From the IMG/VR virus record IMGVR_UViG_3300033233_000014, positions 32,001 to 96,000 of that record: 64,000 nt of DNA. One strand, written 5' to 3'. Positions 9,130-28,589 of this stretch are shown piece by piece; positions within the stretch are counted from its first letter, which is position 1; each line of letters begins with the position of its first letter. A model generated the notes under the pieces. That model had not been told where the DNA came from, ran no database searches, and saw only the letters and a program-made list of their open reading frames with translations. Made by a program: the position numbers and the translations under genes. The DNA is from a virus.

Positions 9130-9435
9130 CTAGACCGGCGCCGGGGCGACGAGATCGGTGACGACGCCGGCGTTGTTGACCTCTTGGGCCCGGTAGCCCG
9201 TGGAGGGGCCGCCGGAGTCCTTCACGCCCTGCGCGAGCGCGTCCGCCGTGTTCTGCGAACTGTCGCCGTCGGCGACCGTCGCCTTCATGCCCCCGAGCGG
9301 CGAGCGCCACAGGCCGGTGACCGGCTTCGAGCCGACGGCGTCGAACACCTTCTTCGCCGCGCGCTCGAGGACACGGGCATCCGTCCCGAACTGCTGCCCG
9401 ATGGGCGGGAACGACACGAAGATCTGCTTCGACAT
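9130..9435 (-). CDS. Hypothetical protein
   Basis: 101-aa ORF with SD AGGAGG. Confidence 0.7.
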   Translation of the reverse strand: MSKQIFVSFPPIGQQFGTDARVLERAAKKVFDAVGSKPVTGLWRSPLGGMKATVADGDSSQNTADALAQGVKDSGGPSTGYRAQEVNNAGVVTDLVAPAPV

Positions 9436-9482
9436 GTGAGCCTCCTACGGGCCGGCGGCATGCCGCGCCCGCTGCCCGTCCA

Positions 9483-14175: not shown

Positions 14176-14268
14176 GCGGGCCAGTCTACGACTCGCCCGT
14201 CGCGCAGTACCACCTGGTACCTGCTGGTACCGTCGGAGACACGAGGCCTCTCCGCGGGCGTTGATCGT

Positions 14269-14345
14269 TGGTACCGAGGGCGGGAGTCGCACCCGCCTTA
14301 GCCTCCTTATGAGGGAGGTGCCTCATGCTGCTCGGCCACCTCGGC
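14269..14345 (-). tRNA. tRNA-Met/Ile2 (CAT)
   Basis: Cloverleaf, CCTCC-CTCATAA-GGAGG, encoded CCA. Confidence 0.85.
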
Positions 14346-14420
14346 TGGTGGAGTGGGCCGGTTTTGCGCCGACGTGCCCCGGTCTTCAGCCGGGTGCTCT
14401 ACTGATTGAGCTACCACTCC
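14346..14420 (-). tRNA. tRNA-Phe (GAA)
   Basis: CCCGG-CTGAAGA-CCGGG, CCA, atypical T loop. Confidence 0.8.
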
Positions 14421-14426
14421 AAAAAG

Positions 14427-14567
14427 ATCGGAACCGACAAGGGATGCCGAGAGAACGAAGCGCTCTGCCGTTGAGCTACGGCACCGGGTTGCCCCGGCAC
14501 CGGCGGGAATCGAACCCGCACCTCTCTTTTGTGAAAAGATGTACTCCCGACTGCATCCGGTTCCGAC
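14427..14567 (-). ncRNA. Y RNA copy 1 (YrlA-like, permuted tRNA-like domain)
   Basis: 5' CCGGATG-CA-GTCGGGAGTACA pairs with 3' CTCTCGGC-ATCC-CTTGTCGG; inside: T arm (GCGGG TTCGATT CCCGC), loop-closed acceptor stem, then D arm; near Ro60 gene. Confidence 0.8.
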
Positions 14568-14583
14568 CAGCGATGTCAAAAAA

Positions 14584-14677
14584 GTAGGGGCCGACAAGGG
14601 TTGCCGAGAGAACCCGGGGTTGCCCCCGGAGATTTACTACAGATGTAAATGTACTCCCGACTTCATCCGGCCCCTAC
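14584..14677 (-). ncRNA. Y RNA copy 2 (two small hairpins, no tRNA domain)
   Basis: Same closing stem motif; internal TTTAC/GTAAA hairpin and GCAA-tetraloop hairpin. Confidence 0.7.
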
Positions 14678-15115
14678 CGATGAACGCATCTCTTGAAGGA
14701 TTCGATAGCGGACGTGCCTGAGTTGCTTCGCCGTCTTGCGTCGATGGCAGTTGGCGCATCGCACGTCACACTTCTCGATCTCCTCGATCAACCTCTCCTT
14801 TCTTACCCGTGAGACTAGAAGGCTCACGGTCATGATCTTCTTCTCTGGATCTCGATGATCGAAGTCAAGGACAAGAGGATCCGGCTCTCCGCAGTCCACG
14901 CACGGATGCACGAGGAGGTACGCAACAACAAATCTCCGGTTCCTCTCAACAAGCTTCTGCTTCGACTTGTTGCCCTTCCAGACGTAGTACGCTCGGTTGC
15001 TTCGGTAGTGGGTCTTCTTGTATTCGAGCCGGCACCTCCGGCACTTCCCGTCCTTCGTCTTGTTCTTTCCGACGCGAGGCCGGCCACACTTCCGACACGG
15101 CCTCGTCTTCTGCAC
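14663..15115 (-). CDS. HNH endonuclease (homing-type, Zn-binding)
   Basis: CVDCG...LDFDHRDP...EIEKCDVRCANCHRRKT. Confidence 0.85.
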   Translation of the reverse strand: MQKTRPCRKCGRPRVGKNKTKDGKCRRCRLEYKKTHYRSNRAYYVWKGNKSKQKLVERNRRFVVAYLLVHPCVDCGEPDPLVLDFDHRDPEKKIMTVSLLVSRVRKERLIEEIEKCDVRCANCHRRKTAKQLRHVRYRILQEMRSSVGAG

Positions 15116-15189
15116 GAAGCCAGTCTACGCTACGGGAGAGAATGCCGCAAGGCAAGATTCTCCCCGAGCATCCGGCCCCTACCCGTTCG

Positions 15190-16902
15190 TTACTCCTCCT
15201 TCACCGGCTCCGCCGGCTCCACCGTCTCCTCGTGCTTCTCCTCCGCCTCGCCCGTGTCCGTGGCCGCGAGATCGAGCGCCTCGACCTTCGCCAGCCAATG
15301 CTCGGCCGCCAGCGTGCCGCGCGCGAACTCGGCCAGGATCTCGAACACCGCGTCCGAGAACCCGCCGATGTTGAGCGTGTCCGGCTGCTCCGGCGCCTGC
15401 ACCGTCGTGTACGCCTGCAGGTTGATGCAGACCAGCCGCGCCTTCGGGTTCCGGCTCTTGAAGGTCGCCCACTCGTCGGCCACACCGCTGCTCTGCCCGT
15501 AGAGTCCGGTGCCCGCGTAGGCGTGCGTGTCCACCCACGACTCCATGTCGGAGACGATGATGACGAGGTCGCCCTTGCCCTTCTTGCCGTTGATCATCCG
15601 GAGCACCGAGGCGCAGTCCGTCCCGCCCCCGCCGTACTTGGCGAGCTTCTGGGCGTTCGTGAGCACCGTGTCCCGCGGGTTGAGCGTCGCCGTGTGCGGC
15701 ACGGTGTCGAACGGGATGACCTCGGCCTCGTGGTTCTTCCGCAGGATGGCCGACGCGATGAGCGCCGCCACGTCCACGCACCGCGCCACCGTCGTCGCCC
15801 CCACGCCCCGCGCGCCCGTGATCGGCGAGGACATCGAGCCCGACACGTCGACGCAGACGTAGACCTTCCCCTCAAGCGCCGGCACGTTCTCCGTGGCGAC
15901 CTCGAGCGCATCCTGCAGCGCCTCCGTGACCGCCTTCGGGATCCGCCCCTCGATGAACTGGCCCTTCGCGTCCCGCACCTGCCCCGTGGTCGCGAGATAG
16001 GAGACGAGCAACTGGTACGGGAACACCTTGGCCTTCCGAATCGTCTCCGGGTCGCGGAGCTTCCCCGCGATCTCCGCGGTGAGCCCCTCGACCTCGAAGA
16101 CGCCCTTGCGGGCGTAGTTGTTGAGGTTGATCCGGGTCTGGTGGAACCAGCCGCGCCGGGCCACCGCCACCCAATGCTCCCGGGTGAGCGGCAGGCTGGT
16201 CAGCATCTGCATCGGCACGTCCGGCGCGTCCTTGCCCGCCGGATCCTTCTTGAACGCCTCGTACTCCCGGATGGCCGCTGGCAGCCGCGGATCGTCGCCC
16301 GCGACCTTCCCGATGAGCCAGCCGTAGAGCGCCGTCGCCGCCTCGCCCATCGGCTTCGGCCGGGCCAACTTGATGATGTCCCCGAGCGACGGGTTGGTGC
16401 CCACGCTGTCCCGCAGGAGGACGTGGGGCCGCCGGACTGCGAACCAGGCGTGGATGAGCCGCCGGACGACGCCCTTGAGCGCCCGGTGCTTGCCCATCTT
16501 GCCGCTTCGCAGGATCTGGACGACGTTGCGGAGCATCTTCCCGTTCGTGACAACGTGCGGCCACGCCCGCTCGAACCACTTCGCGCCCTCCGCCCCCTGG
16601 TTGCGGAGCCACGCGAGCAGGACGGCCGGCATGTCCTTCATGAAGCCGCGCTGCCGGGCGTAGACCGCCACCTTGGCGACGAACTCGGGCGTCACGTCGA
16701 CGTGCTTGAGCAGGATGAGGACGGTGTCGAGTTGCGCCTCGCCGCTGGCGTAGAACGCCTCGCCGAGGCAGCCCGTGGCCGCCAACTGGGCGAGCGCGTG
16801 CCGCGGGGTGAGCGTGTACGCCAGCCCGCCGGCCTCGTTGCGATCGGTCGTCTCGGGCGGGGTGGCCCCCCGCCGGGACTGGAACAGGGACTTGTTTGCC
16901 AT
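15190..16902 (-). CDS. rsr: Ro60/TROVE domain RNA-binding protein (Rsr) with vWA domain
   Basis: NEAGGLAY...LAQLAATGC N-terminus, KVFPYQLL, vWA MIDAS VDVSGSM, GGGTDC, IIVSDMESW, IGGFSDAVF. Confidence 0.92.
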   Translation of the reverse strand: MANKSLFQSRRGATPPETTDRNEAGGLAYTLTPRHALAQLAATGCLGEAFYASGEAQLDTVLILLKHVDVTPEFVAKVAVYARQRGFMKDMPAVLLAWLRNQGAEGAKWFERAWPHVVTNGKMLRNVVQILRSGKMGKHRALKGVVRRLIHAWFAVRRPHVLLRDSVGTNPSLGDIIKLARPKPMGEAATALYGWLIGKVAGDDPRLPAAIREYEAFKKDPAGKDAPDVPMQMLTSLPLTREHWVAVARRGWFHQTRINLNNYARKGVFEVEGLTAEIAGKLRDPETIRKAKVFPYQLLVSYLATTGQVRDAKGQFIEGRIPKAVTEALQDALEVATENVPALEGKVYVCVDVSGSMSSPITGARGVGATTVARCVDVAALIASAILRKNHEAEVIPFDTVPHTATLNPRDTVLTNAQKLAKYGGGGTDCASVLRMINGKKGKGDLVIIVSDMESWVDTHAYAGTGLYGQSSGVADEWATFKSRNPKARLVCINLQAYTTVQAPEQPDTLNIGGFSDAVFEILAEFARGTLAAEHWLAKVEALDLAATDTGEAEEKHEETVEPAEPVKEE

Positions 16903-16983
16903 CGGTCTATCCTCCTTCTCTGGGATTTACAGAAGTGTACACGAAGGGAAACACTCAATCCACTCGAAAGGTTCATCCGAATC

Positions 16984-17058
16984 TGGGGTGACCGGCGAGA
17001 GTCGCACTCGCGCGGCGAGAGTCACAGTCTCGTGCCCTACTGTTAGGCGACGGTCACC
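16984..17058 (-). tRNA. tRNA-His (GTG)
   Basis: CGAGA-CTGTGAC-TCTCG, G-1 present, CCA. Confidence 0.88.
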
Positions 17059-17080
17059 ATCGTCGCGTCGATCCGCGGGC

Positions 17081-17155
17081 TGGAGCTGAAGGTGGGATTT
17101 GCACCCACATAGCCCGCCTTACGAGAGCGGTGCATCGCTGTTCTGCCACTTCAGC
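17081..17155 (-). tRNA. tRNA-Thr (CGT)
   Basis: CCGCT-CTCGTAA-GGCGG, CCA. Confidence 0.88.
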
Positions 17156-17158
17156 ATC

Positions 17159-17232
17159 TGGGGCCCAAGGGCGGGATCGCACCGCCGCTGGCGAGGTACA
17201 GGCTCGCCGTGCTGCTGCTACACCACTCGGGC
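17159..17232 (-). tRNA. tRNA-Thr (TGT), C33 variant
   Basis: GCGAG-CCTGTAC-CTCGC, CCA, flanked by the other Thr tRNAs. Confidence 0.8.
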
Positions 17233-17308
17233 TGGAGCCACCGGCGGGAATCGGACCCGCGACCTCCTCCTTACCAAGGAGGCGCTCTTCCATCTGAGCT
17301 ACAGCGGC
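17233..17308 (-). tRNA. tRNA-Thr (GGT)
   Basis: CCTCC-TTGGTAA-GGAGG, CCA. Confidence 0.9.
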
Positions 17309-17382
17309 TGGCTGCCCCGGTACGATTCGAACGTACACGGCGAGGGTCAAAGCCTCGCGGCCTACCATTAGCCGACAGGGCA
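17309..17382 (-). tRNA. tRNA-Gln (TTG)
   Basis: CGAGG-CTTTGAC-CCTCG, U1-A72, CCA. Confidence 0.9.
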
Positions 17383-17478
17383 GAAGTCGCCGAAGACAGT
17401 CGGGCGCGCTGGACTGCGGGGTATCCCTCCCTCGACTCCCGCTTCTCGGCGGAAGCCGAGGTAGGGATCCCGCAGATC

Positions 17479-17553
17479 TGGAGCGGCCAGCGGGTTTCGC
17501 ACCCGCGACTTCCAGGTTGGGAACCTGGCGCTCTACTACTGAGCTACGGCCGC
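17479..17553 (-). tRNA. tRNA-Gly (CCC)
   Basis: CCAGG-TTCCCAA-CCTGG, CCA. Confidence 0.9.
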
Positions 17554-17735
17554 ATGCATGCGCCAGAGACAGCTGGCGCCCCCTGGCCCGCGTATCGCCG
17601 CAGCGCCAACGAGAGCCCCTCGTGAGCACCGCTACGCATCACCGTCGTGCGTTGGCCCCGTGTGAATCTTGGATCGTGAAGTCGACGGCCGTCAGCGAAC
17701 ACTTGGGGGTTCCAAGGTTGCTGACCCCACAGAAC

Positions 17736-17809
17736 TGGAGCGGGCCGCGAGAATCGAACTCGCGTCCTCGGGTTGGAGGCCCGACGCCTTGCCACTAGAC
17801 GAGGCCCGC
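17736..17809 (-). tRNA. tRNA-Gly (TCC), C33 variant
   Basis: TCGGG-CCTCCAA-CCCGA, CCA. Confidence 0.85.
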
Positions 17810-17869
17810 ATCGTGCGCCGGCCTGCCTCAGCATGCCAGCGCCTCTCGAGACAGCGAGAGCCTGAAGAG

Positions 17870-17960
17870 CCGCCTCTCCCCCGACTGTTCTGCCGTTAAA
17901 CTACTCGCGCGTCTACTGCACAGGGGAGGATTCGAACCTCCATCTTTCTAAGGGGGACGG
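17870..17960 (-). ncRNA. Stand-alone circularly permuted tRNA-like RNA
   Basis: T arm GGAGG-TTCGAAT-CCTCC, then loop-closed acceptor stem, then D arm TAGTTTAACGGCAGAAC; closed by CCGTCCCCCT/GGGGG-AGA-GGCGG. Confidence 0.65.
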
Positions 17961-17964
17961 GATC

Positions 17965-18039
17965 TGGAGCGGGTAGTGGGTTTCGCACCCACGGCCTCCA
18001 CCTTGGCAAAGTGGCGCTCTACTACTGAGCTACACCCGC
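17965..18039 (-). tRNA. tRNA-Gly (GCC)
   Basis: CCACT-TTGCCAA-GGTGG, CCA. Confidence 0.9.
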
Positions 18040-18046
18040 GATCTTC

Positions 18047-18132
18047 TGGCGGAGGGGCGGGGACTCGAACCCCGGACGGCGTGAGCCGCGCTCGCCTTCC
18101 AAGCGAGTTCCTCGTCCGGCCGGACCCCCTCC
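18047..18132 (-). tRNA. tRNA-Ser (GGA)
   Basis: CTCGC-TTGGAAG-GCGAG, long variable arm, CCA. Confidence 0.9.
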
Positions 18133-18274
18133 ACTCGACCAGGGACCGGAGTTCCGATGAAAGGAAGCCTGCCTCGGCTGGTCGAACCCGAGGCTTGCCC
18201 AGGCGTCGCGCCTGATCGGATTGTCGGGCACTTCCGGCGCACCCGACGGCGGGCCGAAGGGAATGCCCGGCCGC

Positions 18275-18360
18275 TGGCGGAAGAGGAGGGAATCGAACCC
18301 CCACGGGAGTTACCCGGACGGTTTTCGGGACCGTTGCGCTAGCCGTTACGCCACTCTTCC
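18275..18360 (-). tRNA. tRNA-Ser (CGA), C33 variant
   Basis: ACGGT-CCCGAAA-ACCGT, long variable arm, CCA. Confidence 0.85.
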
Positions 18361-18364
18361 GAGG

Positions 18365-18440
18365 TGGTGGACCCGGCGGGAGTTGAACCCGCGATCTCCG
18401 GAATGCCATTCCGGCGTTCTTCCATCTGAACTACGAGCCC
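18365..18440 (-). tRNA. tRNA-Ala (GGC)
   Basis: CCGGA-ATGGCAT-TCCGG, G3.U70, CCA. Confidence 0.92.
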
Positions 18441-18516
18441 TGGTGGACCTGGCCGGACTCGAACCGGCGATCTCCGCGTTGCGAACGCGGCGCTCTTCCA
18501 ACTGAGCTACAAGCCC
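18441..18516 (-). tRNA. tRNA-Ala (CGC)
   Basis: CCGCG-TTCGCAA-CGCGG, G3.U70, CCA. Confidence 0.92.
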
Positions 18517-18519
18517 ATC

Positions 18520-18594
18520 TGGTGGACGCACCCGGCTTTGCTCCGGGCACCCGACCGTGCAAGGGTCGTGTGATGCTGACTTCACCATGCGCCC
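18520..18594 (-). tRNA. tRNA-Ala (TGC)
   Basis: CGACC-CTTGCAC-GGTCG, G3.U70, atypical T loop AGCAAAG. Confidence 0.82.
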
Positions 18595-18684
18595 AGCGGA
18601 TGCGTGCTACCGTTACACCACAAGACCCGTGCTCCCGAAGGAGTCGAACTTCTTGGCGGGAGTCGAACCCGCACTTCATCCTTG
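18595..18684 (-). ncRNA. Stand-alone circularly permuted tRNA-like RNA
   Basis: GGATG, T arm GCGGG-TTCGACT-CCCGC, acceptor CAAGA/TCTTG capped by a UUCG hairpin, D arm GTGT-AACGGTA-GCAC, CATCC. Confidence 0.7.
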
Positions 18685-18759
18685 TGGAGATCCCGGCAGG
18701 ACTTTCACCTGCGTCGTTCACCCTTTGCAGGGGTGCGCCTGATTCTCGGCCACGGGATC
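18685..18759 (-). tRNA. tRNA-Cys (GCA)
   Basis: CACCC-CTGCAAA-GGGTG, U73, CCA. Confidence 0.85.
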
Positions 18760-18763
18760 GTGC

Positions 18764-18837
18764 TGGCAGGAGCGCAGGGAGTTGAACCCTGGACCTCAGA
18801 TTTGGAGGCTGAGATGTTTCCGTTACACCACACTCCT
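18764..18837 (-). tRNA. tRNA-Trp (CCA)
   Basis: Anticodon loop CTCCAAA, G73, CCA. Confidence 0.88.
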
Positions 18838-18842
18838 TCTGC

Positions 18843-18918
18843 TGGCGACCTCGGCAGGACTCGAACCTGCAGCCTCCGGGGTAGAAACCCGGCGCCGTTC
18901 CTGTTCGGCTACGAGGCC
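18843..18918 (-). tRNA. tRNA-Arg (TCT)
   Basis: CCGGG-TTTCTAC-CCCGG, A20, CCA. Confidence 0.85.
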
Positions 18919-18921
18919 ATC

Positions 18922-19006
18922 TGGTCTTCGGGGGGAGAGTCGAACTCCCACGGGTTTCCCCACTAGGTTCTGAGCCTAGCGCGACTGCCAGTTCCGCCAC
19001 CCGAAG
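18922..19006 (-). tRNA. tRNA-Leu (CAG)
   Basis: CTAGG-CTCAGAA-CCTAG, long variable arm. Confidence 0.9.
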
Positions 19007-19010
19007 ATGC

Positions 19011-19085
19011 TGGTACGGGCACGGGGTATCGATCCCCGTTTCTCGCGCTGAAAACGCGATGTCTTAGCCAGTAGACGATGCCCGC
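19011..19085 (-). tRNA. tRNA-Glu (TTC)
   Basis: TCGCG-TTTTCAG-CGCGA, CCA. Confidence 0.88.
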
Positions 19086-19088
19086 ATC

Positions 19089-19171
19089 TGGTCCGCGCGG
19101 CAGGAGTCGAACCTGCACGCCGAAGCACCTGTTCTTGAGACAGGCGGGTCTGCCATTTCCCCCACGCGCGG
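19089..19171 (-). tRNA. tRNA-Leu (CAA)
   Basis: CCTGT-CTCAAGA-ACAGG, long variable arm. Confidence 0.9.
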
Positions 19172-19175
19172 ATGC

Positions 19176-19269
19176 TGGCGGAGAGGATGGGTGTCGAACC
19201 CACCGTCGCCGTTGAGGCGACCCTGGTTTAGCAAACCAGTCCAGCTAACCAACGATCTGGCTCCTCTCC
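19176..19269 (-). tRNA. tRNA-Ser (GCT)
   Basis: CTGGT-TTGCTAA-ACCAG, long variable arm. Confidence 0.88.
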
Positions 19270-19272
19270 ATC

Positions 19273-19358
19273 TGGTGCGCGAGAGAGGACTCGAACCTCC
19301 ATGCCTTTCGGCACAAGACCCTCAATCTTGCGTGTCTACCAAATTTCACCACTCGCGC
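19273..19358 (-). tRNA. tRNA-Leu (GAG)
   Basis: CAAGA-TTGAGGG-TCTTG, long variable arm. Confidence 0.92.
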
Positions 19359-19434
19359 TGGTCGGCCGAGGAGGGTTCGAACCTCCGACCTTCTGCGTGT
19401 AAGGCAGACGCGCTTCCGACTGTGCCACCGGCCG
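19359..19434 (-). tRNA. tRNA-Val (TAC)
   Basis: TCTGC-CTTACAC-GCAGA, CCA. Confidence 0.9.
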
Positions 19435-19442
19435 ATCTTCTC

Positions 19443-19516
19443 TGGCGGTGCGTACGGGAGTTGAACCCGTACTAGCAGATCGACAATCTGCCGTGCTGCC
19501 GCTACACCAACGCACC
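19443..19516 (-). tRNA. tRNA-Asp (GTC)
   Basis: GCAGA-TTGTCGA-TCTGC, G73, CCA. Confidence 0.9.
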
Positions 19517-19519
19517 CGC

Positions 19520-19594
19520 TGGTTGCCCCGCGAGGATTCGAACCTCAGATTTCCTGGTTCAGAGCCAGGCGTCCTACCGTTGGACGACAGGGCA
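19520..19594 (-). tRNA. tRNA-Gln (CTG)
   Basis: CCTGG-CTCTGAA-CCAGG, CCA. Confidence 0.9.
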
Positions 19595-19595
19595 G

Positions 19596-19668
19596 TTGGA
19601 GCGGCGGGAGTTGCACCCGCGTCTCGACTGTATAGGAGTCGCGCCTGAGACTACTCGGCCACGCTCCG
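19596..19668 (-). tRNA. tRNA-Ile (TAT), atypical: C33, C1.A72 mismatch, no encoded CCA
   Basis: CGACT-CCTATAC-AGTCG; adjacent to Ile(GAT). Confidence 0.7.
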
Positions 19669-19744
19669 TGGTCGTTCGGGAAGGAATCGAACCTTCCTGA
19701 CCTACCTTATCAGGGTAGTGCCTGAACCACTAGGCTACCGAACG
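19669..19744 (-). tRNA. tRNA-Ile (GAT)
   Basis: CTACC-CTGATAA-GGTAG, CCA. Confidence 0.9.
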
Positions 19745-19917
19745 AGAGCGACTCGGGCCGGCTTTGGCAGGCACTTGGGTAGCGCCGCACAGACCGGCGG
19801 GGTGAAACCCGGATCAGCGCCAGCAGAGCCGTACGGACGTGCCGCCGTTGATGCTGGACCACCACTCTACGATGAGGCTTCGGTCTGATGACCGCGCCTT
19901 CCCCTTCTCCGCGTCGC

Positions 19918-19994
19918 TGGTAGATCCGATAGGACTTGAACCTATGGCCTCCTGCGTGTGAAGCAGGCGCTCTGCGCAACTGAGCTACGGATCT
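19918..19994 (-). tRNA. tRNA-Val (CAC)
   Basis: CCTGC-TTCACAC-GCAGG, CCA. Confidence 0.88.
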
Positions 19995-20131
19995 ATCGGT
20001 GACGACGCAAAGGATGTCGTTGCCGTCCGCACCGGATCGATGAAGCCGGCGTGTCGCTAGGCACCGGAGCAGGCGCACTGTCCATCTCCGGCCGAGTCTC
20101 TGCCGAGGCATCGTCCTCGTTCGTCGTCACC

Positions 20132-20209
20132 TGGTCGGACTGGCCGGATTCGAACCGGCGGCCTCCTGAACCCCATTCAGGCGCGCTAGCCAGCCTGCGC
20201 TACAGCCCG
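20132..20209 (-). tRNA. tRNA-Pro (GGG)
   Basis: CCTGA-ATGGGGT-TCAGG, C1-G72, CCA. Confidence 0.92.
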
Positions 20210-20212
20210 AGC

Positions 20213-20282
20213 GAGAACGGCCCGACAAGGGACGCCGAGAGTTCAGTTTAGATGTACTCCCAGCAGCATCCGGATCGTTCCC
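20213..20282 (-). ncRNA. Y RNA copy 3 (minimal, stem only)
   Basis: CCGGATG-CT-GCTGGGAGTACA-short loop-CTCTCGGC-GTCC-CTTGTCGG. Confidence 0.7.
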
Positions 20283-20358
20283 TGGTCGCGCGGGTCGGGT
20301 TCGAACCGACACCCTTCGGCTCCCAAAGCCGACGCTCCACCGCTTGAGCTTCCGCACG
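20283..20358 (-). tRNA. tRNA-Pro (TGG)
   Basis: TCGGC-TTTGGGA-GCCGA, CCA. Confidence 0.9.
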
Positions 20359-20362
20359 CACA

Positions 20363-20480
20363 CGAGGCCCCGGACAAGAGAGTCGAGAGGAATGCCTTCC
20401 AGAGGTTGCCCTCTCAGGCGAGCCCTTGCGGGCTTCAAGATTTGAACTTGGTGTACTCCCAACAGCATCCCGATGCCTCG
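20363..20480 (-). ncRNA. Y RNA copy 4 (T-loop hairpin plus two GCAA hairpins)
   Basis: CGGGATG-CT-GTTGGGAGTACA...CTCTCGAC-TCT-CTTGTCCG with compensatory changes; CAAG-TTCAAAT-CTTG inside. Confidence 0.7.
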
Positions 20481-20481
20481 C

Positions 20482-20559
20482 TGGTCGGGCTAGCAGGATT
20501 TGAACCTGCGGTCTCTTGCTCCCGAAGCAAGCGCGTTGACCAGGCTACGCTACAGCCCG
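20482..20559 (-). tRNA. tRNA-Pro (CGG)
   Basis: CTTGC-TTCGGGA-GCAAG, CCA. Confidence 0.92.
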
Positions 20560-20562
20560 AAT

Positions 20563-20714
20563 GAAGACGACCGACAAGAGAGCCGAGAGAACCGGGTTGC
20601 CCCGGAATCCTGGCGCTCTACCGTTGAGCTACCGCACGATCTATTCGCGCGAGTGAGGAGTCGAACCTCACGACCTCCAGGGCCATGTACTCCCAGCGGC
20701 ATCCGGCCGCCTTC
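20563..20714 (-). ncRNA. Y RNA copy 5 (YrlA-like, full permuted tRNA domain plus GCAA hairpin)
   Basis: Shared stem; CCTGG...T arm...acceptor TCGCGCG-AATAGAT-CGTGCGG...D arm GCTC-AACGGTA-GAGC...CCAGG. Confidence 0.82.
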
Positions 20715-20789
20715 TGGTGTTCCGGGCAGGAGTCGCACCTGCAGCCGTCTCGTTAGGACCGAGTCGCGCTTCTGTTGCGCCACCGGAAC
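20715..20789 (-). tRNA. tRNA-Arg (CCT)
   Basis: CTCG-GTCCTAA-CGAG, CCA. Confidence 0.82.
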
Positions 20790-20794
20790 ATTGC

Positions 20795-20872
20795 TGGTTG
20801 CGCGGGCGAGACTTGAACTCGCAGCCTTCGGCTTCGGAGGCCGACGCTCTATCCAAGTTGAGCTACCGCACA
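20795..20872 (-). tRNA. tRNA-Arg (CCG)
   Basis: TCGGC-CTCCGAA-GCCGA, CCA. Confidence 0.9.
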
Positions 20873-20876
20873 GCAG

Positions 20877-21491
20877 TTACAGACCCGCGAGCATCGCGGG
20901 GGAAAAGACCGACTCAGACTTGACCTTCCGACGAACCACTCGGAAGCCCGCCTTGCGGGCCGCCCGATCCTTGCGGCAGTCGACTTCCCGCTGCCTCGGA
21001 TCCTTGTGGTACGACCCGTCGAACTCCACGATCACCTTCACGTCGAGAAGCGCGAGGTCGAAGACGAACGCCCCAATCTCGAACTCGAACTCGAACCGCC
21101 TTCCGGCCGCAACGAGCGTCTCCCGAAGCGCCGCGTACTTCCACTCCTCCCGGCGCTTGAGCGTCTCGGCCGGCGAGAAGAGGTTGTGTGCGTTCTCAAG
21201 CCCGGAGCGACGCGCAGCCTCGCGCCGCTCCTCGCTCACGCTCCCCTTGCTGGCACAAGCACGAGAGCAGAACCGCTTAGACCGACGGCGGGTGGACGTG
21301 CTGAACACGATTCCGCAGACCGGGCACGTCATCTCGAATGTCTTCGCCTTCTTCGGCGCGTTGCCCGCGACCGCTGTGCATGAGAGTCCGCAGAAGAACC
21401 GGCGGCCAAGCCTTCGGGCACGGTTGACTTCCCCGATCCGCTTCTCGACTTCCTTCCCACAGCGGGCGCACCGAACAATGGTAGTCGCCAC
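20877..21491 (-). CDS. DUF559/Vsr-like PD-(D/E)XK endonuclease with Zn-finger repeats (homing-type)
   Basis: Two CxxC...FCSxxC-type modules, then FDLALLDVKVIVEFDGSYH...KDRAARKAGFRVVR; GTG start at 21491. Confidence 0.78.
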   Translation of the reverse strand: MATTIVRCARCGKEVEKRIGEVNRARRLGRRFFCGLSCTAVAGNAPKKAKTFEMTCPVCGIVFSTSTRRRSKRFCSRACASKGSVSEERREAARRSGLENAHNLFSPAETLKRREEWKYAALRETLVAAGRRFEFEFEIGAFVFDLALLDVKVIVEFDGSYHKDPRQREVDCRKDRAARKAGFRVVRRKVKSESVFSPAMLAGL

Positions 21492-21543
21492 GCCCCCATC
21501 GTAGCCGCGATGTAGGCGTGGCGCAATACCCGATGTAGGCGAT

Positions 21544-21916
21544 TGGAGGCGGCGAGATTTGCACTCGCGTCTCAAAGACCTTCGCCCGAAGCCTCTACGC
21601 GCGTGTCCCTGCTTCTCGTCTTTCCTCGGGCGCAGGACAGCCCATCGTCAGGCGTCTCTTGCCAAGCACCCAGTCTTTCCTGGGTGTCAGACCCTGGTGC
21701 CTTCCCTGCGCCGGGCCGTGCGCAAGGCGGGGTTGCTCGAGGTCGGCTAGGCCGCGAGCCGCAGGCCCCGAGCCGCGTGAGCGGCCCGGAAGTCCACGGT
21801 GGTCACCTTGAGGTGACTGGCTGATGAATTGTGGTCCGCTTGTTGACGGGGCCTGCTGACCAACCCCGGCGCGCATCCCCGGACTCCGATCTCCGATCGA
21901 AAACTAGTTCGCCCCC
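21544..21916 (-). ncRNA. ssrA: tmRNA; tag peptide (A)ASHLKVTTVDFRAAHAARGLRLAA*
   Basis: 5' GGGGGCGAAC...TTCGA, pk1-like segment, tag ORF ending LAA-TAG at 21747, 3' T arm and CGCCTCCA with G3.U70. Confidence 0.9.
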
Positions 21917-21920
21917 ATGC

Positions 21921-21996
21921 TGGTACTCCCGAGGGGATTCGAACCCCACGTTTCCACCGTGAGAGGGTGGCGTCCTGCCGGCTAGACGACGGGAGC
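21921..21996 (-). tRNA. tRNA-Glu (CTC)
   Basis: CCACC-CTCTCAC-GGTGG, CCA. Confidence 0.92.
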
Positions 21997-22095
21997 ATTG
22001 CGGCGAGGCGGCGCCGCGCCGGAGAGGGCCACGAGAGTTGCACCCGCGCGCCAGCAAGCATGGCATGCCTGCTGGCGTCATCTCTGATCCTTCCC

Positions 22096-22137
22096 TGGTG
22101 GATCCGGTGGGACTCGAACCCACGCGAACCCGTGTTA
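22096..22137 (-). pseudogene. Orphan tRNA 3' half
   Basis: GTGGG-TTCGAGT-CCCAC-CGGATCC-ACCA with no matching 5' half (GGATCCG) seen in the array. Confidence 0.6.
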
Positions 22138-22213
22138 TGGTTGCCCGGGAGGGATTCGCACCCTCAGCCTCGTCCTTAAGAGGGACTTGCTCCGCTAGTT
22201 GAGCTACCGAGCA
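22138..22213 (-). tRNA. tRNA-Lys (CTT)
   Basis: GTCC-CTCTTAA-GGAC, CCA. Confidence 0.85.
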
Positions 22214-22225
22214 TCTGAAAGTCTC

Positions 22226-22301
22226 TGGCTCCACGGGTAGGGCTCGAACCTACATCATCCTGGGTAACAGCCAGGCGCTCAGCCAGTTGAGCTACCGTGG
22301 A
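22226..22301 (-). tRNA. tRNA-Asn (GTT)
   Basis: CCTGG-CTGTTAC-CCAGG, CCA. Confidence 0.9.
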
Positions 22302-22306
22302 CCGGA

Positions 22307-22381
22307 TGGTCACGCCGAGAGGAGTCGAACCTCTTTGGCAGGATCCGTAGTCCTGTGCCTGATCCGATCGGCCACGGCGTG
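22307..22381 (-). tRNA. tRNA-Arg (ACG)
   Basis: CAGGA-CTACGGA-TCCTG, CCA. Confidence 0.88.
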
Positions 22382-22488
22382 AATGCAGACGCGGTGTTCG
22401 CGCACCGCGCCCACTCGAACGTCTCGTCGAACTGTCAGAGAACCTCGGTCAAGTCGCGCCTCGGCGCTCGACCACGCACGAAACCTGG

Positions 22489-22517
22489 ATTCTACCACAT
22501 CAGCGAATCTTTGTCAA
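22489..22517 (-). promoter_or_regulatory. Sigma70-type promoter for the tRNA array
   Basis: TTGACA-17 bp-TAGAAT with extended TG. Confidence 0.75.
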
Positions 22518-22522
22518 GACGC

Positions 22523-22610
22523 TGGTGGGCCGTGGTGGAGTTGAACCACTTGCTCGCCGCTCCCCATATCAGAGCGACCGCTTTACAGGCGGCCGGGGAG
22601 AACACGTCCC
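22523..22610 (-). tRNA. tRNA-Tyr (GTA), D-arm-less with expanded variable arm
   Basis: GCCGC-CTGTAAA-GCGGT; only ~10 nt between acceptor and anticodon stems; CCA. Confidence 0.7.
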
Positions 22611-22683
22611 GGTGGGCCCGGAGGGAGTCGGACCCTCGCCTTCCGGTTAAAAGCCGGCTGCTCGGCCGCTGAGCTACGGACCC
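22611..22683 (-). tRNA. tRNA-Lys (TTT)
   Basis: CCGG-CTTTTAA-CCGG. Confidence 0.88.
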
Positions 22684-22753
22684 GCGTGGACTACGCGGCC
22701 CGTTTCGCCAGCGCGGCGCCGGCCCCGGTATAGCCCACCGCCGCGGCGCGCCC

Positions 22754-22828
22754 TGGTTGCCGCGGCTGGGGTCGAACCAGCAGCCCCCCGCATGTCAAAC
22801 GGGTGCTCTTCCGCTGAGCTACGCGACA
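22754..22828 (-). tRNA. tRNA-Val (GAC)
   Basis: CCCGT-TTGACAT-GCGGG, CCA. Confidence 0.88.
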
Positions 22829-22836
22829 CCCGATGC

Positions 22837-22911
22837 TGGTAGCGGGGGCGAGGATCGAACTCGCGAACTCCAGCTTATGAGGCTGGCATGATACCGCTTC
22901 ACCACCCCGCG
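22837..22911 (-). tRNA. tRNA-fMet-like (CAT)
   Basis: CCAGC-CTCATAA-GCTGG, CGCGGGG acceptor with C1.U72 mismatch. Confidence 0.85.
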
Positions 22912-23120
22912 ATAGGGACGTGCTCACGGCGCCGTGCAGGGGGTCGCCTTGCACGGGCGCCGTGGTCACGCCCACGGATCGACACGAACTGTCAAGGAAC
23001 GCCGAGAGACTACCCGGGCTCTCGTCGCCAGGTTGCTGCGCGGAATCTTCGTCTGGCATCGCAGGGAGTGTAACACCTGCGCCGGCCGGAAGGTTCACGA
23101 AACTGGACGAAAGTGCCCGC

Positions 23121-23594: not shown

Positions 23595-23803
23595 CAGGCC
23601 GCCACCGCGATCTCGGCGATGATCTTGTGGCACTTGACGCAGGCCACCCGCACGACGCCCTGCCCCACCACGTAGGACGCCTCGACGGCGGCCCGTGGAT
23701 GGCAGCGCCCGTGGAAGAACATCTCGGGGTGGGCGTGTCCATCCGCACAGTCCAGGCACCCGCCGCCCATCGCCTTGTCGAGTTGCTTCTTGTTCAGCGC
23801 CAT
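23594..23803 (-). CDS. Small Cys/His-rich protein
   Basis: CLDC...RCHP...CVKC; coupled start. Confidence 0.65.
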   Translation of the reverse strand: MALNKKQLDKAMGGGCLDCADGHAHPEMFFHGRCHPRAAVEASYVVGQGVVRVACVKCHKIIAEIAVAA

Positions 23804-24462
23804 CAGCGTCCTCCTCGCGCCAGCCTGTTCGGCACGATGGGCTGGTGCAGCCAATGTTCATCCGTCTGGACATGCTCCGCGCGCACGAACTTCGCCACCG
23901 ATCGCTCGAAGTCCGCATCGGCGAACTCGTCGGACACGCGCACGACCACGCCCTCGATCTCGTCGCCGAAGGTCGGCCCCGCGCTCCGGATGAGGCCCGC
24001 GGTGAAGCGATCGACGGCTGCGCCGTCCGGCAGTTTGAACTGCGCCAGCGTCGGGACGACCTGCAAGTCGAGGCCGAGCGCGAGGCCGATGGTATCGGCC
24101 ACACTCAGCCAGACGTGCCGCACCTCGTCCCGCGCCCCGAAGATGAGGAAGTAGGACGGGAGATCCCAGTACGCGATCGAGTGCCGCGCGTAGAGCCACT
24201 CCCCGAAGAGGGACACGCCGGCCGGGATCCGATGCCGAACTTCCGCCCACAGCGCCTTCGCCCGATTGAAGGAGGCATGCGTCGGCGGCCCCTCGTGCGA
24301 CCGCGCGAAGATGCCCTCGCGCGTGAAGCAGCAGTTCGACCCGTCCATCTTCTCGGAGAAGTGGAGCAGCCGCCCCGCGAGGGCGCCCGCCGACTCGAGC
24401 CGGAGATCGTCCCGCGCCTCGGCGGGGCTCGACGGCAGATGCGCGATCCGCGGATACTTCAC
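23803..24462 (-). CDS. ATP-dependent RNA ligase family protein (Rnl2-like adenylation domain)
   Basis: KYPRIAHLPSS, EKMDGSN (motif I), FGEWLYARHSIAY, EGVVVR, VAKFVRAEHVQTDEHW. Confidence 0.85.
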   Translation of the reverse strand: MKYPRIAHLPSSPAEARDDLRLESAGALAGRLLHFSEKMDGSNCCFTREGIFARSHEGPPTHASFNRAKALWAEVRHRIPAGVSLFGEWLYARHSIAYWDLPSYFLIFGARDEVRHVWLSVADTIGLALGLDLQVVPTLAQFKLPDGAAVDRFTAGLIRSAGPTFGDEIEGVVVRVSDEFADADFERSVAKFVRAEHVQTDEHWLHQPIVPNRLARGGR

Positions 24463-24644
24463 GCCGGCCCCGTCGGTTCCCAGACATCGGTGCGCGTCCC
24501 GTCCTGCTCGAGGTAGACCTCCTTCGTCGCCCCGCACCGGCAGGTGAAGAAGTAGTCACACGCCTGCGCGGCACCCTTCCCGTCCTCGTGCCACGCATGC
24601 GCGTGCGCCGGCTTCGGCAGGGGCTTCTTGGCCTTCGAGTTCAT
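24459..24644 (-). CDS. Hypothetical protein
   Basis: Coupled small ORF MNSKAKK...CRCG. Confidence 0.5.
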   Translation of the reverse strand: MNSKAKKPLPKPAHAHAWHEDGKGAAQACDYFFTCRCGATKEVYLEQDGTRTDVWEPTGPA

Positions 24645-28568: not shown

Positions 28569-28589
28569 GACTGCAGACAGTCTGCAGTC
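28569..28589. repeat. 21-bp palindrome (copy 2)
   Basis: GACTGCAGAC-A-GTCTGCAGTC. Confidence 0.8.

What the first reader, a model, noticed from the sequence alone, without database searches (positions are those of the whole stretch)
14427..20714. Phage-encoded Ro60 with a family of five modular Y RNAs interleaved in a tRNA array
Seen in sequence: five ncRNAs (14427-14567, 14584-14677, 20213-20282, 20363-20480, 20563-20714) share the same two-part closing stem, 5' C[CG]GGATG-NN-GYYGGGAGTACA ... CTCTCG[GA]C-N3-4-CTTGTC[GC]G 3'. The stem shows compensatory changes (GTCGGGAG, GCTGGGAG, GTTGGGAG vs CTCTCGGC, CTCTCGAC) and each copy has its own fully paired outer stem. The enclosed domain differs in every copy: a permuted tRNA (copies 1 and 5), two hairpins (copy 2), essentially nothing (copy 3), and a T-loop plus two GCAA hairpins (copy 4). 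A full-length Ro60/TROVE gene lies in the same transcription unit. Established: bacterial Ro60 (Rsr) binds Y RNAs through their terminal stem, YrlA RNAs carry a permuted tRNA-like module, and Y RNA can tether Rsr to effectors such as PNPase. Inference: this phage builds a set of Ro60 RNPs with interchangeable RNA effector modules, released by tRNA processing, perhaps as decoys or adaptors for tRNA protection and repair. Five diversified paralogs in one phage locus looks unusual to me.
Basis: partly seen in the sequence, partly recalled or inferred. Interest (0 to 1): 0.92.

Follow-up and report, generated by a model that had tools for sequence, protein, structure and literature searches.

The report
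Five phage Y RNAs beside Ro60
An uncultured 112-kb phage encodes a Ro60 ring protein and five small Y RNAs that share one Ro60-docking stem but carry different inner domains, threaded between tRNA genes; this is a known kind of RNA-protein system in a more expanded form than the papers I could search describe.

Summary
Five minus-strand elements share a two-part closing stem with the motifs CCGGAUGC, GGGAGUACA and CUUGUCGG. A covariance model built from two copies finds exactly the other three in 64 kb and nothing else. The stem matches the closing stem of the Rfam YrlA consensus, so these are bacterial-type Y RNAs. Copies 1 and 5 carry YrlA-type tRNA-like domains, copy 4 has a T arm plus GCAA hairpins, and copies 2 and 3 are hairpin types. 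The 570-aa gene is a full-length Ro60. Copies 3-5 exactly fill tRNA spacers, starting right after an encoded CCA and ending 3 nt before the next tRNA.

Five copies is not unusual among relatives. In 25 of 26 Ro60-encoding phage records the stem model finds 1-11 copies (105 hits), all on the Ro60 strand and often abutting tRNAs; cultured Myxococcus phage Mx1 has two. Phage Ro60 with Y RNAs is published (Chen 2014; phiLo 2025), but I found no paper on families this large. Binding, expression and effector roles remain untested.

First readers noted this same stretch in overlapping windows of this genome, not on other DNA.

The parts
14426..14568 (-). Y RNA copy 1. YrlA type with T arm, a 10-bp GCAA-capped acceptor-like hairpin and D arm. 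A U5 run and then a tRNA follow.
   Evidence: R1 at 61.6 bits, E 8e-18, although not used to build the model. RF02553 at 45.1 bits, aligned in register over the whole stem. Fold z-score -5.4.
14583..14678 (-). Y RNA copy 2. Two hairpins, the second GCAA-capped, followed by a U run.
   Evidence: Folds (z-score -5.6). Seed of model R1.
20210..20282 (-). Y RNA copy 3, minimal hairpin type. It fills the whole spacer between tRNA-Pro(UGG)-CCA and tRNA-Pro(GGG).
   Evidence: Fold pairs nt 1-70 of the 73-nt spacer, z-score -3.2. tRNA coordinates.
20359..20481 (-). Y RNA copy 4: T-loop hairpin plus two GCAA hairpins. It fills the spacer between tRNA-Pro(CGG)-CCA and tRNA-Pro(UGG).
   Evidence: R1 at 37.2 bits, E 8e-10, not in the model. 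Fold z-score -2.7. GNRA hairpins counted.
20560..20714 (-). Y RNA copy 5. YrlA type with T arm, 7-bp acceptor-like hairpin and D arm, plus an extra GCAA hairpin. It fills the spacer between tRNA-Arg(CCU)-CCA and tRNA-Pro(CGG).
   Evidence: R1 at 32.8 bits, E 2e-8. RF02553 at 31.2 bits. Fold.
15190..16902 (-). Ro60 (Rsr) gene, 570 aa, with a strong AAGGAGGA ribosome-binding site upstream.
   Evidence: Pfam vWA_Ro60 4e-14. phrog_850 1e-40. 5929 homologues at E<=1e-20, at 50-66% identity among the 120 best listed, many named 60 kDa SS-A/Ro. PDB 2NVO (Rsr) E 4e-21 over residues 17-530, and phiLo Ro60 9KOP 1e-7. The MIDAS motif D352-x-S-x-S356 is invariant.
14663..15115 (-). HNH homing-endonuclease ORF lying between Ro60 and Y RNA copy 2. 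It looks like a later insertion.
   Evidence: phrog_2255 7e-30. Contigs of a roughly 90-93% identical relative in run X3 join 14564 to 15189 and 14661 to 15222, skipping it.
14269..22911 (-). Array of about 42 tRNA genes in which the Y RNAs, Ro60 and tmRNA are embedded.
   Evidence: ARAGORN and Rfam.
21543..21916 (-). tmRNA gene.
   Evidence: RF00023 at 66.1 bits, above the gathering score of 47.
22489..22517 (-). Sigma-70-like promoter candidate, the nearest one upstream of the unit. It is one of 11 near-identical sites on the contig, all on the minus strand.
   Evidence: 11 of 12 consensus matches with an extended -10. Family of 11 found.
23803..24537 (-). RNA ligase gene just upstream of the array.
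   Evidence: Pfam RNA_ligase 3e-25. phrog_24030 6e-39.

Best explanation
The five elements are phage Y RNAs of the bacterial Yrl class. They are probably transcribed with Ro60, about 42 tRNAs and tmRNA as one long minus-strand unit from the sigma-70-like promoter at 22517-22489.

Processing (inferred). RNase P cutting at the 5' end of each downstream tRNA would free the Y RNA 3' end with a 3-nt tail. Maturation of the upstream tRNA-CCA end would free the Y RNA 5' end. The fully paired termini would protect the RNA from exonucleases.

Docking (inferred from homology). The phage Ro60 ring binds the conserved internal loop and helix (CCGGAUGC opposite CUUGUCGG, plus the GYYGGGAG-UACA stem), as Rsr binds YrlA and phiLo Ro60 binds Yrl1 and Yrl2.

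Payload (inferred). The variable inner domain projects from the ring and sets what each particle does:
- two tRNA mimics (copies 1 and 5);
- a T-arm plus GNRA-hairpin module (copy 4);
- two simple hairpin forms that may only gate the Ro60 cavity (copies 2 and 3).

The most likely output is recruitment of host enzymes, since the contig shows no PNPase, RtcB or CCA-adding enzyme. One candidate is a Ro60-Y RNA-PNPase type decay or quality-control machine for structured RNA during infection.

Shown here: sequence family, structure, covariation, Ro60 identity, linkage and geometry. Inferred: transcription unit, processing, binding and effector role.
For: - Family and structure.
- Same stem as Rfam YrlA, aligned in register for copy 1.
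- Published motifs GNCGAAN0-1G and YUAY.
- Cross-phage conservation with covariation: 34 sequences, 96.6% of cells paired against 68% in shuffles and about 40% in slid controls, and all 20 pairs with double changes. That alignment is fitted to the model.
- Linkage: 105 R2 hits in 25 of 26 Ro60 phage records, all on the Ro60 strand. 85 hits in Ro60 loci and none in 134 kb of 14 unrelated viral loci.
- Motif-first test: 23 of 44 records with a model-supported Y RNA encode Ro60, against 2 of 30 records with chance motif hits.
- Ro60 identity.
- Geometry: copies 3-5 fill their spacers exactly. In relatives, 18 of 85 Y RNAs start within 15 nt of a tRNA end and 17 end within 15 nt of a tRNA start.
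- Only one promoter of the phage's own promoter family lies upstream, and none lies inside the unit.
- Precedents: phiLo Ro60 binds two phage Yrl RNAs and host PNPase (PMC12135203). D. radiodurans Yrn2, tRNA-Asp and Yrn1 come from one precursor, and M. smegmatis YrlA is cut by RNase P (PMC4201824).
Against: - There are no expression or binding data: no RNA run holds the stretch.
- Neither tRNA-like copy reaches the Rfam YrlA gathering score (45 and 31 bits against 69).
- The Rsr motif differs from the published one by an A-to-G change.
- The inner stem hardly varies within the window, so its covariation support comes from other phages, in an alignment fitted to the model.
- A 5' end lying directly after CCA needs an endonuclease cut exactly there, which is not the usual E. 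coli pathway.
- Eight near-complete phage genomes have such Y RNAs but no Ro60, so the RNA does not strictly need a phage Ro60.
- No effector enzyme is on the contig, and the contig is only 73% complete.
Confidence: 0.78

Rival explanations
1. The elements are structured spacers of the tRNA operon, acting as processing, stability or termination signals. On this reading they have no role with Ro60, and the resemblance to the Y RNA stem is incidental.
For: Copies 3-5 exactly fill tRNA spacers. Copies 1 and 2 are long stems followed by U runs, which look like terminators.
Against: The conserved unpaired motifs equal the YrlA and Rsr motifs. The stem model hits only Ro60-linked loci, always on the Ro60 strand, and none of 14 control loci. 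Other spacers in the same array lack the motif. Two copies lie directly after Ro60 rather than between tRNAs.
Confidence: 0.04
2. The RNAs work mainly with the host's own Rsr, or without any Ro60. They would act as tRNA mimics that soak up or redirect host tRNA-handling enzymes or defence nucleases, with the phage Ro60 dispensable for them.
For: Eight phage genomes rated 91-100% complete carry strong matches to the same stem (39-60 bits) but no Ro60 by protein search or by two Pfam models. YrlA RNAs are substrates of TruB, DusA, RNase P and CCA addition (PMC4201824).
Against: This phage does keep a full-length Ro60 on the same strand, 0.5 kb from two copies. Three of the five copies have no full tRNA-like domain. 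The tRNA-like domains lack an anticodon loop, so they cannot mimic targets of anticodon nucleases.
Confidence: 0.12
3. Only some copies are functional. The others are decaying duplicates left by tandem duplication of tRNA-Pro plus Y RNA units.
For: Three copies alternate with three tRNA-Pro genes. The inner domains share no alignable sequence. No module has a detectable orthologue in other phages beyond generic T and D arms.
Against: Every copy keeps a fully paired outer stem through double changes and invariant loop motifs. All three module classes, including the short one, recur across phages; the short class is the commonest, 52 of 85. Copies 3-5 are covered by contigs of a relative in run X3 at about 90% identity.
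Confidence: 0.06

Closest known systems
Bacterial YrlA Y RNAs (Rfam RF02553; Chen et al. 2014, PMC4201824)
   Same: Two-part closing stem with CG(A/G)AUGC, (G/C)UACA and CUUGUCG. T arm, closed acceptor-like hairpin and D arm in copies 1 and 5. Encoded within 4 kb of Ro60 on the same strand.
   Different: Scores of 45 and 31 bits are below the gathering score of 69. The motif is CGGAUG instead of CGAAUG. There are extra GCAA hairpins. The copies sit inside a roughly 42-gene tRNA array rather than at an rsr/rtcBA locus.
YrlB / Yrn2 hairpin-type Y RNAs (S. Typhimurium, M. smegmatis, D. radiodurans; PMC4201824)
   Same: A second class of Y RNA in the same genome that shares the Rsr motif but lacks a full tRNA-like domain. 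M. smegmatis YrlB has a T arm, like copy 4. Yrn2 is made from one precursor together with a tRNA.
   Different: Three such RNAs occur here with three different interiors. I made no sequence comparison with the published YrlB or Yrn2 sequences.
Thermus phage phiLo Ro60 with Yrl1 and Yrl2 (PMC12135203; PDB 9KOP, 9L5Y)
   Same: Phage-encoded Ro60 with phage-encoded Y RNA-like genes nearby that carry the CGAA-type motif. Binding and a complex with host PNPase were shown there.
   Different: phiLo has two RNAs, this phage has five. The Ro60 proteins are only distantly alike (E 1e-7). No link to a tRNA array is stated in the passages I read.
Mycobacteriophage (cluster C type) Ro-like protein with YrlA (Pedulla 2003; Chen 2014)
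   Same: A large phage with many tRNAs, tmRNA, Ro60 and YrlA.
   Different: Protein identity is about 23%. The paper reports YrlA-type RNAs only and discarded hits overlapping tandem tRNAs.
Myxococcus phage Mx1 (OR576727.2)
   Same: The closest cultured relative by Ro60 (43% identity). Its Ro60 lies in a tRNA region. It has two model-supported Y RNAs at 45163-45301 and 45512-45634, the second starting right after tRNA-Ile.
   Different: It has two copies, 11 kb from Ro60, and they are not annotated. One is overlapped by a 40-aa hypothetical CDS.

Membership tests
Bacterial Y RNA, YrlA class (RF02553) | 5' Rsr-contact motif GNCGAAN0-1G in a stem formed by the 5' and 3' ends | tested here: inconclusive
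   All five copies have the stem and the motif position, but read (N)CCGGAUG or UCGGGAUG, with one A-to-G change. Relatives mostly read CGAAUGC.
Bacterial Y RNA, YrlA class (RF02553) | Conserved YUAY at the start of the inner domain | tested here: inconclusive
   GUACA is invariant in the five copies: the UAC is kept but the first base is G rather than a pyrimidine. Relatives mostly have CUACAU.
Bacterial Y RNA, YrlA class (RF02553) | tRNA-like domain in the order T arm, acceptor-like hairpin, D arm | tested here: met
   Met for copies 1 and 5 only. Copy 4 has a T arm only. Copies 2 and 3 have none.
Bacterial Y RNA, YrlA class (RF02553) | Score at or above the Rfam gathering threshold (69 bits) | tested here: not met
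   45.1 bits (copy 1) and 31.2 bits (copy 5); copies 2-4 have no hit. None of the 26 Ro60 phage records searched reaches the cut-off either.
Bacterial Y RNA, YrlA class (RF02553) | Encoded within about 4 kb of Ro60 on the same strand | tested here: met
   Copies 1 and 2 lie 0.5-0.6 kb downstream of Ro60 and copies 3-5 lie 3.3-3.8 kb upstream, all on the minus strand.
Y RNA (functional definition) | Bound by Ro60/Rsr in vivo or in vitro | not testable with these tools
   This needs EMSA or immunoprecipitation. No RNA data set holds the stretch.
Ro60 / Rsr protein | Full-length TROVE (HEAT-repeat ring) plus vWA domain with a MIDAS motif | tested here: met
   vWA_Ro60 is above its cut-off. The Pfam TROVE model scores only 18.8 bits against a cut-off of 23, but the whole length aligns to Rsr 2NVO (residues 17-530, E 4e-21) and to thousands of proteins named Ro60. 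DVSGS is invariant.
tRNA gene (including permuted tRNA genes) | Anticodon arm with a 7-nt loop, and an acceptor end with CCA or a site for it | tested here: not met
   The anticodon-stem position runs on into the Ro60-binding stem and the acceptor is closed by a loop. The ARAGORN 'tRNA-???' call at 14494-14578 is an artefact of copy 1.

The most novel reading that the evidence does not exclude
Large phages, and some small phages with no Ro60 of their own, carry expandable cassette families of Y RNAs: one constant Ro60-docking stem with swappable payload domains, up to 11 per genome. These would be cut out of tRNA polycistrons by the host's tRNA-processing enzymes. The family would serve as a set of adaptors that point phage or host Ro60 at several different host enzymes or RNA targets during infection.
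Probability: 0.3. Interest if true: 0.8.

Novelty: new variant of a known kind. Interest (0 to 1): 0.55.

Why it matters
What the inner domains of bacterial Y RNAs do, and why they mimic tRNA, is still open. This phage and its relatives offer a natural library: one docking stem carrying many different payloads (tRNA mimic, T arm with GNRA hairpins, bare hairpin), from 2 up to 11 per genome.

The cultured relative Mx1 carries two and could be tested in Myxococcus. That would make payload-specific partners testable by pull-down.

The exact fit between tRNA genes also suggests a simple production route, cutting by tRNA-processing enzymes, that could be checked in vitro.

The side observation of Y RNAs in complete phage genomes without Ro60 hints that phages may also exploit the host's Rsr.

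Tried and rejected
- The window-specific pattern GGATGNNGNNGGGAGTACA gave 22 single hits in IMG/VR. None has the 3' half, so all are chance.
- The search for related loci with the single Ro60 protein found nothing. An alignment was needed.
- Megablast of 14200-23000 against phage records gave no match.
- No RNA holder was listed for the stretch.
- Laying DNA contigs of four runs gave fragmentary cover and a truncated difference list. I could not score compensatory changes between strains from it.
- The reviews PMC10870794 and PMC6047535 and the supplementary tables of Chen 2014 are not held. I could therefore not see how many YrlA copies per phage were listed there.
- I tested 18595-18684 and 17810-17964 as possible sixth and seventh copies. 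Both have T-arm and D-arm pieces, but neither R1 nor R2 matches them and they lack the docking stem. Rejected as family members.
- The ARAGORN permuted 'tmRNA*' at 17737-18457 and 'tRNA-???' at 14494-14578 are artefacts.
- blastn of each copy against all fetched loci returned only generic T-arm and D-arm matches, so no orthologous payloads were detected.
- RtcB, CCA-adding enzyme and PNPase/RNase PH families are absent from the contig, which is 73% complete.

Full report
**Setting.** The window is bases 32001-96000 of a 111.6-kb IMG/VR virus contig that CheckV rates 73% complete. It has 68% G+C, and nearly all genes lie on the minus strand. It carries a terminase large subunit. Its Ro60 is closest, among cultured phages, to that of Myxococcus phage Mx1 at 43% identity. 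DNA runs that hold the stretch come from sediment metagenomes.

Between 14269 and 22911 the minus strand carries about 42 tRNA genes and a tmRNA. It also carries two homing-endonuclease ORFs and the 570-aa Ro60 gene. An RNA ligase gene lies just upstream.

**The observation.** The 9-mer GGGAGTACA and the longer motif GGATGNNGNNGGGAGTACA each occur exactly five times in the window. All five are on the minus strand at the stated places (chance about 0.1), and there are five in the whole contig.

Each element folds into three parts: a fully paired outer stem of unrelated sequence, a conserved internal loop, and an inner stem GYYGGGAG/CUCUCGRC. A variable interior follows (z-scores -2.7 to -5.6).

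A covariance model built from copies 2 and 3 alone finds copies 1, 4 and 5 at E 8e-18 to 2e-8. It finds nothing else on either strand of the 64 kb.

Over the five copies, 98% of pair cells are standard pairs, against 82% in shuffles and 41-56% in slid controls. Nine of the 12 outer-stem pairs change on both sides, but only one of the 8 inner-stem pairs does.

**What the elements are.** The Rfam YrlA consensus has the same closing architecture: ggCgaAUGC, then a second stem, then CUAc, and on the 3' side cUuGucGcc. Copy 1 aligns to it in register along the whole stem.

The piece CCGGAUG is the published Rsr-contact motif GNCGAAN0-1G with one A-to-G change, and UACA is the published YUAY.

Copies 1 and 5 also match the YrlA tRNA-like domain (T arm, closed acceptor-like hairpin, D arm). 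They score 45 and 31 bits, below the gathering score of 69. The other interiors are:
- Copy 4: a T-loop hairpin and two GCAA-capped hairpins.
- Copy 2: two hairpins.
- Copy 3: almost nothing.

A GCAA-capped G+C hairpin recurs in four of the five copies.

**The protein.** The gene product is a full-length Ro60:
- vWA_Ro60 scores above its Pfam cut-off.
- There are thousands of homologues; the 120 best listed are 50-66% identical and many are named 60 kDa SS-A/Ro.
- It aligns over its whole length to D. radiodurans Rsr 2NVO, and more weakly to phiLo, human and Xenopus Ro60.
- The MIDAS motif is invariant.

**Relatives.** An alignment of Ro60 homologues retrieved 25 IMG/VR loci. The stem model from this window hit 33 elements in 19 of the 26 loci searched (those 25 plus the Mx1 locus), all on the Ro60 strand.

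A model rebuilt from 34 sequences gave the following:
- 105 hits in 25 of 26 whole records (24 of those contigs, this contig and Mx1), again all on the Ro60 strand. Copy numbers were 11, 10, 9, 7, 6 and several fives; Mx1 has two.
- 85 hits in the Ro60 loci, and none in 134 kb of 14 unrelated viral loci.

Across the 34 sequences, 96.6% of pair cells are paired, against 68% in shuffles and about 40% in slid controls. All 20 pairs show double changes, with the caveat that this alignment is fitted to the model.

The consensus is CGAAUGC, a short stem, (G/C)UACAU, then the variable interior, the stem's 3' strand, 3-4 nt, and CUUGUCG.

The same payload classes recur: 52 short forms (median 85 nt), 16 with a T arm only, 15 with T and D arms (median 151 nt), and 2 with a D-arm-like motif only.

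**Motif-first test.** Searching IMG/VR for the consensus 5' motif gave 98 stretches, against 22 chance hits for the window-specific pattern of equal information content. Among the 80 loci listed, 46 contain model-supported Y RNAs.
- Of the 44 records behind those 46 loci, 23 encode a Ro60 homologue.
- Of 30 records with unsupported motif hits, 2 encode one.

It is not absolute, however. Eight records rated 91-100% complete, four with terminal repeats, carry strong Y RNA matches but no Ro60 by protein search or by two Pfam models.

**Geometry and likely production.** The three upstream tRNAs encode CCA. Copies 3, 4 and 5 begin at the very next base. Each ends 3 nt before position +1 of the next tRNA and so fills its spacer exactly. 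Copies 1 and 2 follow Ro60 and end in U runs, and copy 1 is followed directly by a tRNA.

In relatives, 18 of 85 Y RNAs start within 15 nt of a tRNA end, 17 end within 15 nt of a tRNA start, and 20 abut another Y RNA. In Mx1 one candidate starts right after tRNA-Ile and is annotated as a 40-aa hypothetical protein.

The contig has 11 near-identical sigma-70-like promoters, all on the minus strand. The lowest lies at 22517-22489 and none lies between it and 14269. A single transcription unit covering Ro60 and all five Y RNAs is therefore plausible but not shown.

The HNH ORF between Ro60 and copy 2 is skipped in contigs of a close relative. The ancestral order was therefore probably Ro60 directly followed by Y RNAs, as in several relatives.

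**Mechanism.** I take these to be Ro60-binding Y RNAs released from a tRNA polycistron by tRNA-processing enzymes, with the variable domain setting the partner or the gating behaviour of each particle.

The contig shows no PNPase, RtcB or CCA-adding enzyme. Partners would then be host enzymes, as shown for phiLo Ro60, its Yrl RNAs and host PNPase.

The neighbouring RNA ligase, tmRNA and tRNA set fit an RNA-maintenance island. A jumbo-phage review lists Ro60 (TROVE) proteins beside RNA ligases among phage RNA-repair genes. A decoy role against anticodon nucleases is unlikely, because the tRNA-like domains have no anticodon loop.

**Novelty.** The following are already published:
- phage Ro60 with YrlA, reported in 22 phages (Chen 2014);
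- two Yrl RNAs bound by a phage Ro60 (phiLo 2025);
- two or more Y RNAs per bacterium, with different domains;
- co-transcription of Y RNAs with a tRNA.

I found no paper describing the size of these families, the payload diversity on a constant stem, the exact tRNA punctuation, or Ro60-less carriers. Two key reviews and the 2014 supplementary tables were not available to me.

First readers noted this same stretch in overlapping windows of this genome.

Noticed in passing
L105, L112, L126, L131, L055, L088, L098, L128 (IMG/VR records G048, G052, G057, G062, G025, G042, G045, G059): Eight phage genomes of 48-77 kb, rated 91-100% complete (four with terminal repeats), carry clear Y RNAs with the same docking stem (39-60 bits). 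They have no Ro60 by protein search or by the TROVE and vWA_Ro60 Pfam models. These may be 'orphan' Y RNAs that use the host's Rsr. In L088 two of them flank a tRNA-Tyr, and in L098 one starts right after tRNA-Tyr.
   Followed up: partly
window 18595-18684 (-): A stand-alone permuted tRNA-like element: T arm, a hairpin with a UUCG loop, then a D arm, closed by GGAUG/CAUCC. It has no Ro60-docking stem, and its fold is no more stable than shuffles (z-score -0.3). Contigs of a close relative in run X3 skip it (joint 18510 to 18685).
   Followed up: partly
window 17810-17964 (-): A spacer with a perfect T arm and a D-arm-like piece, closed by a C-rich/G-rich stem. The Y RNA models do not match it. 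The X3 relative skips 17868-17962.
   Followed up: no
window 21997-22137 (-): An acceptor-stem plus T-arm minihelix ending in ACCA, just after tRNA-Lys. A long GC-rich hairpin follows it.
   Followed up: no
window 22489-54857 (-): Eleven near-identical promoter-like sites of the form TTGACAAA(A/G)..., about 10 nt, (C/T)GGGTA(Y)(R)AT. All are on the minus strand and none on the plus strand. They look like the phage's own sigma-70-type promoter family with an extended -10.
   Followed up: partly
L152:1664-1802 and L152:2013-2135 (Myxococcus phage Mx1, OR576727.2:45163-45301 and 45512-45634): Two unannotated Y RNA candidates in a cultured phage. One is YrlA-like. The other starts right after tRNA-Ile and is overlapped by the annotated 40-aa hypothetical CDS WNM70101.1, which is probably a miscall.
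   Followed up: partly
window 20132-20714; L030:6612-6832 and 9296-9533; L045:3915-4210: Y RNAs follow tRNA-Pro genes in three different phages: three times in this window, twice in L030 and once in L045. I cannot tell whether this is shared ancestry of the array or a functional link.
   Followed up: no
window 28588-31221 (-): An 877-aa DNA methylase ORF with intein-splicing and LAGLIDADG matches inside it, probably an intein-bearing methyltransferase. Together with the HNH (14663-15115) and DUF559 (20877-21575) ORFs, this shows many selfish elements in the region.
   Followed up: no
G003:129205-130878, G013:33762-35504, G033:126481-128148, G080:127091-128782: In four related phage records the Ro60 match comes in two pieces, residues about 1-108, 1-185 or 1-199 and then the rest, separated by roughly 45-110 bases. 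This may be a frameshift, a small insertion or an intervening element at a shared place.
   Followed up: no
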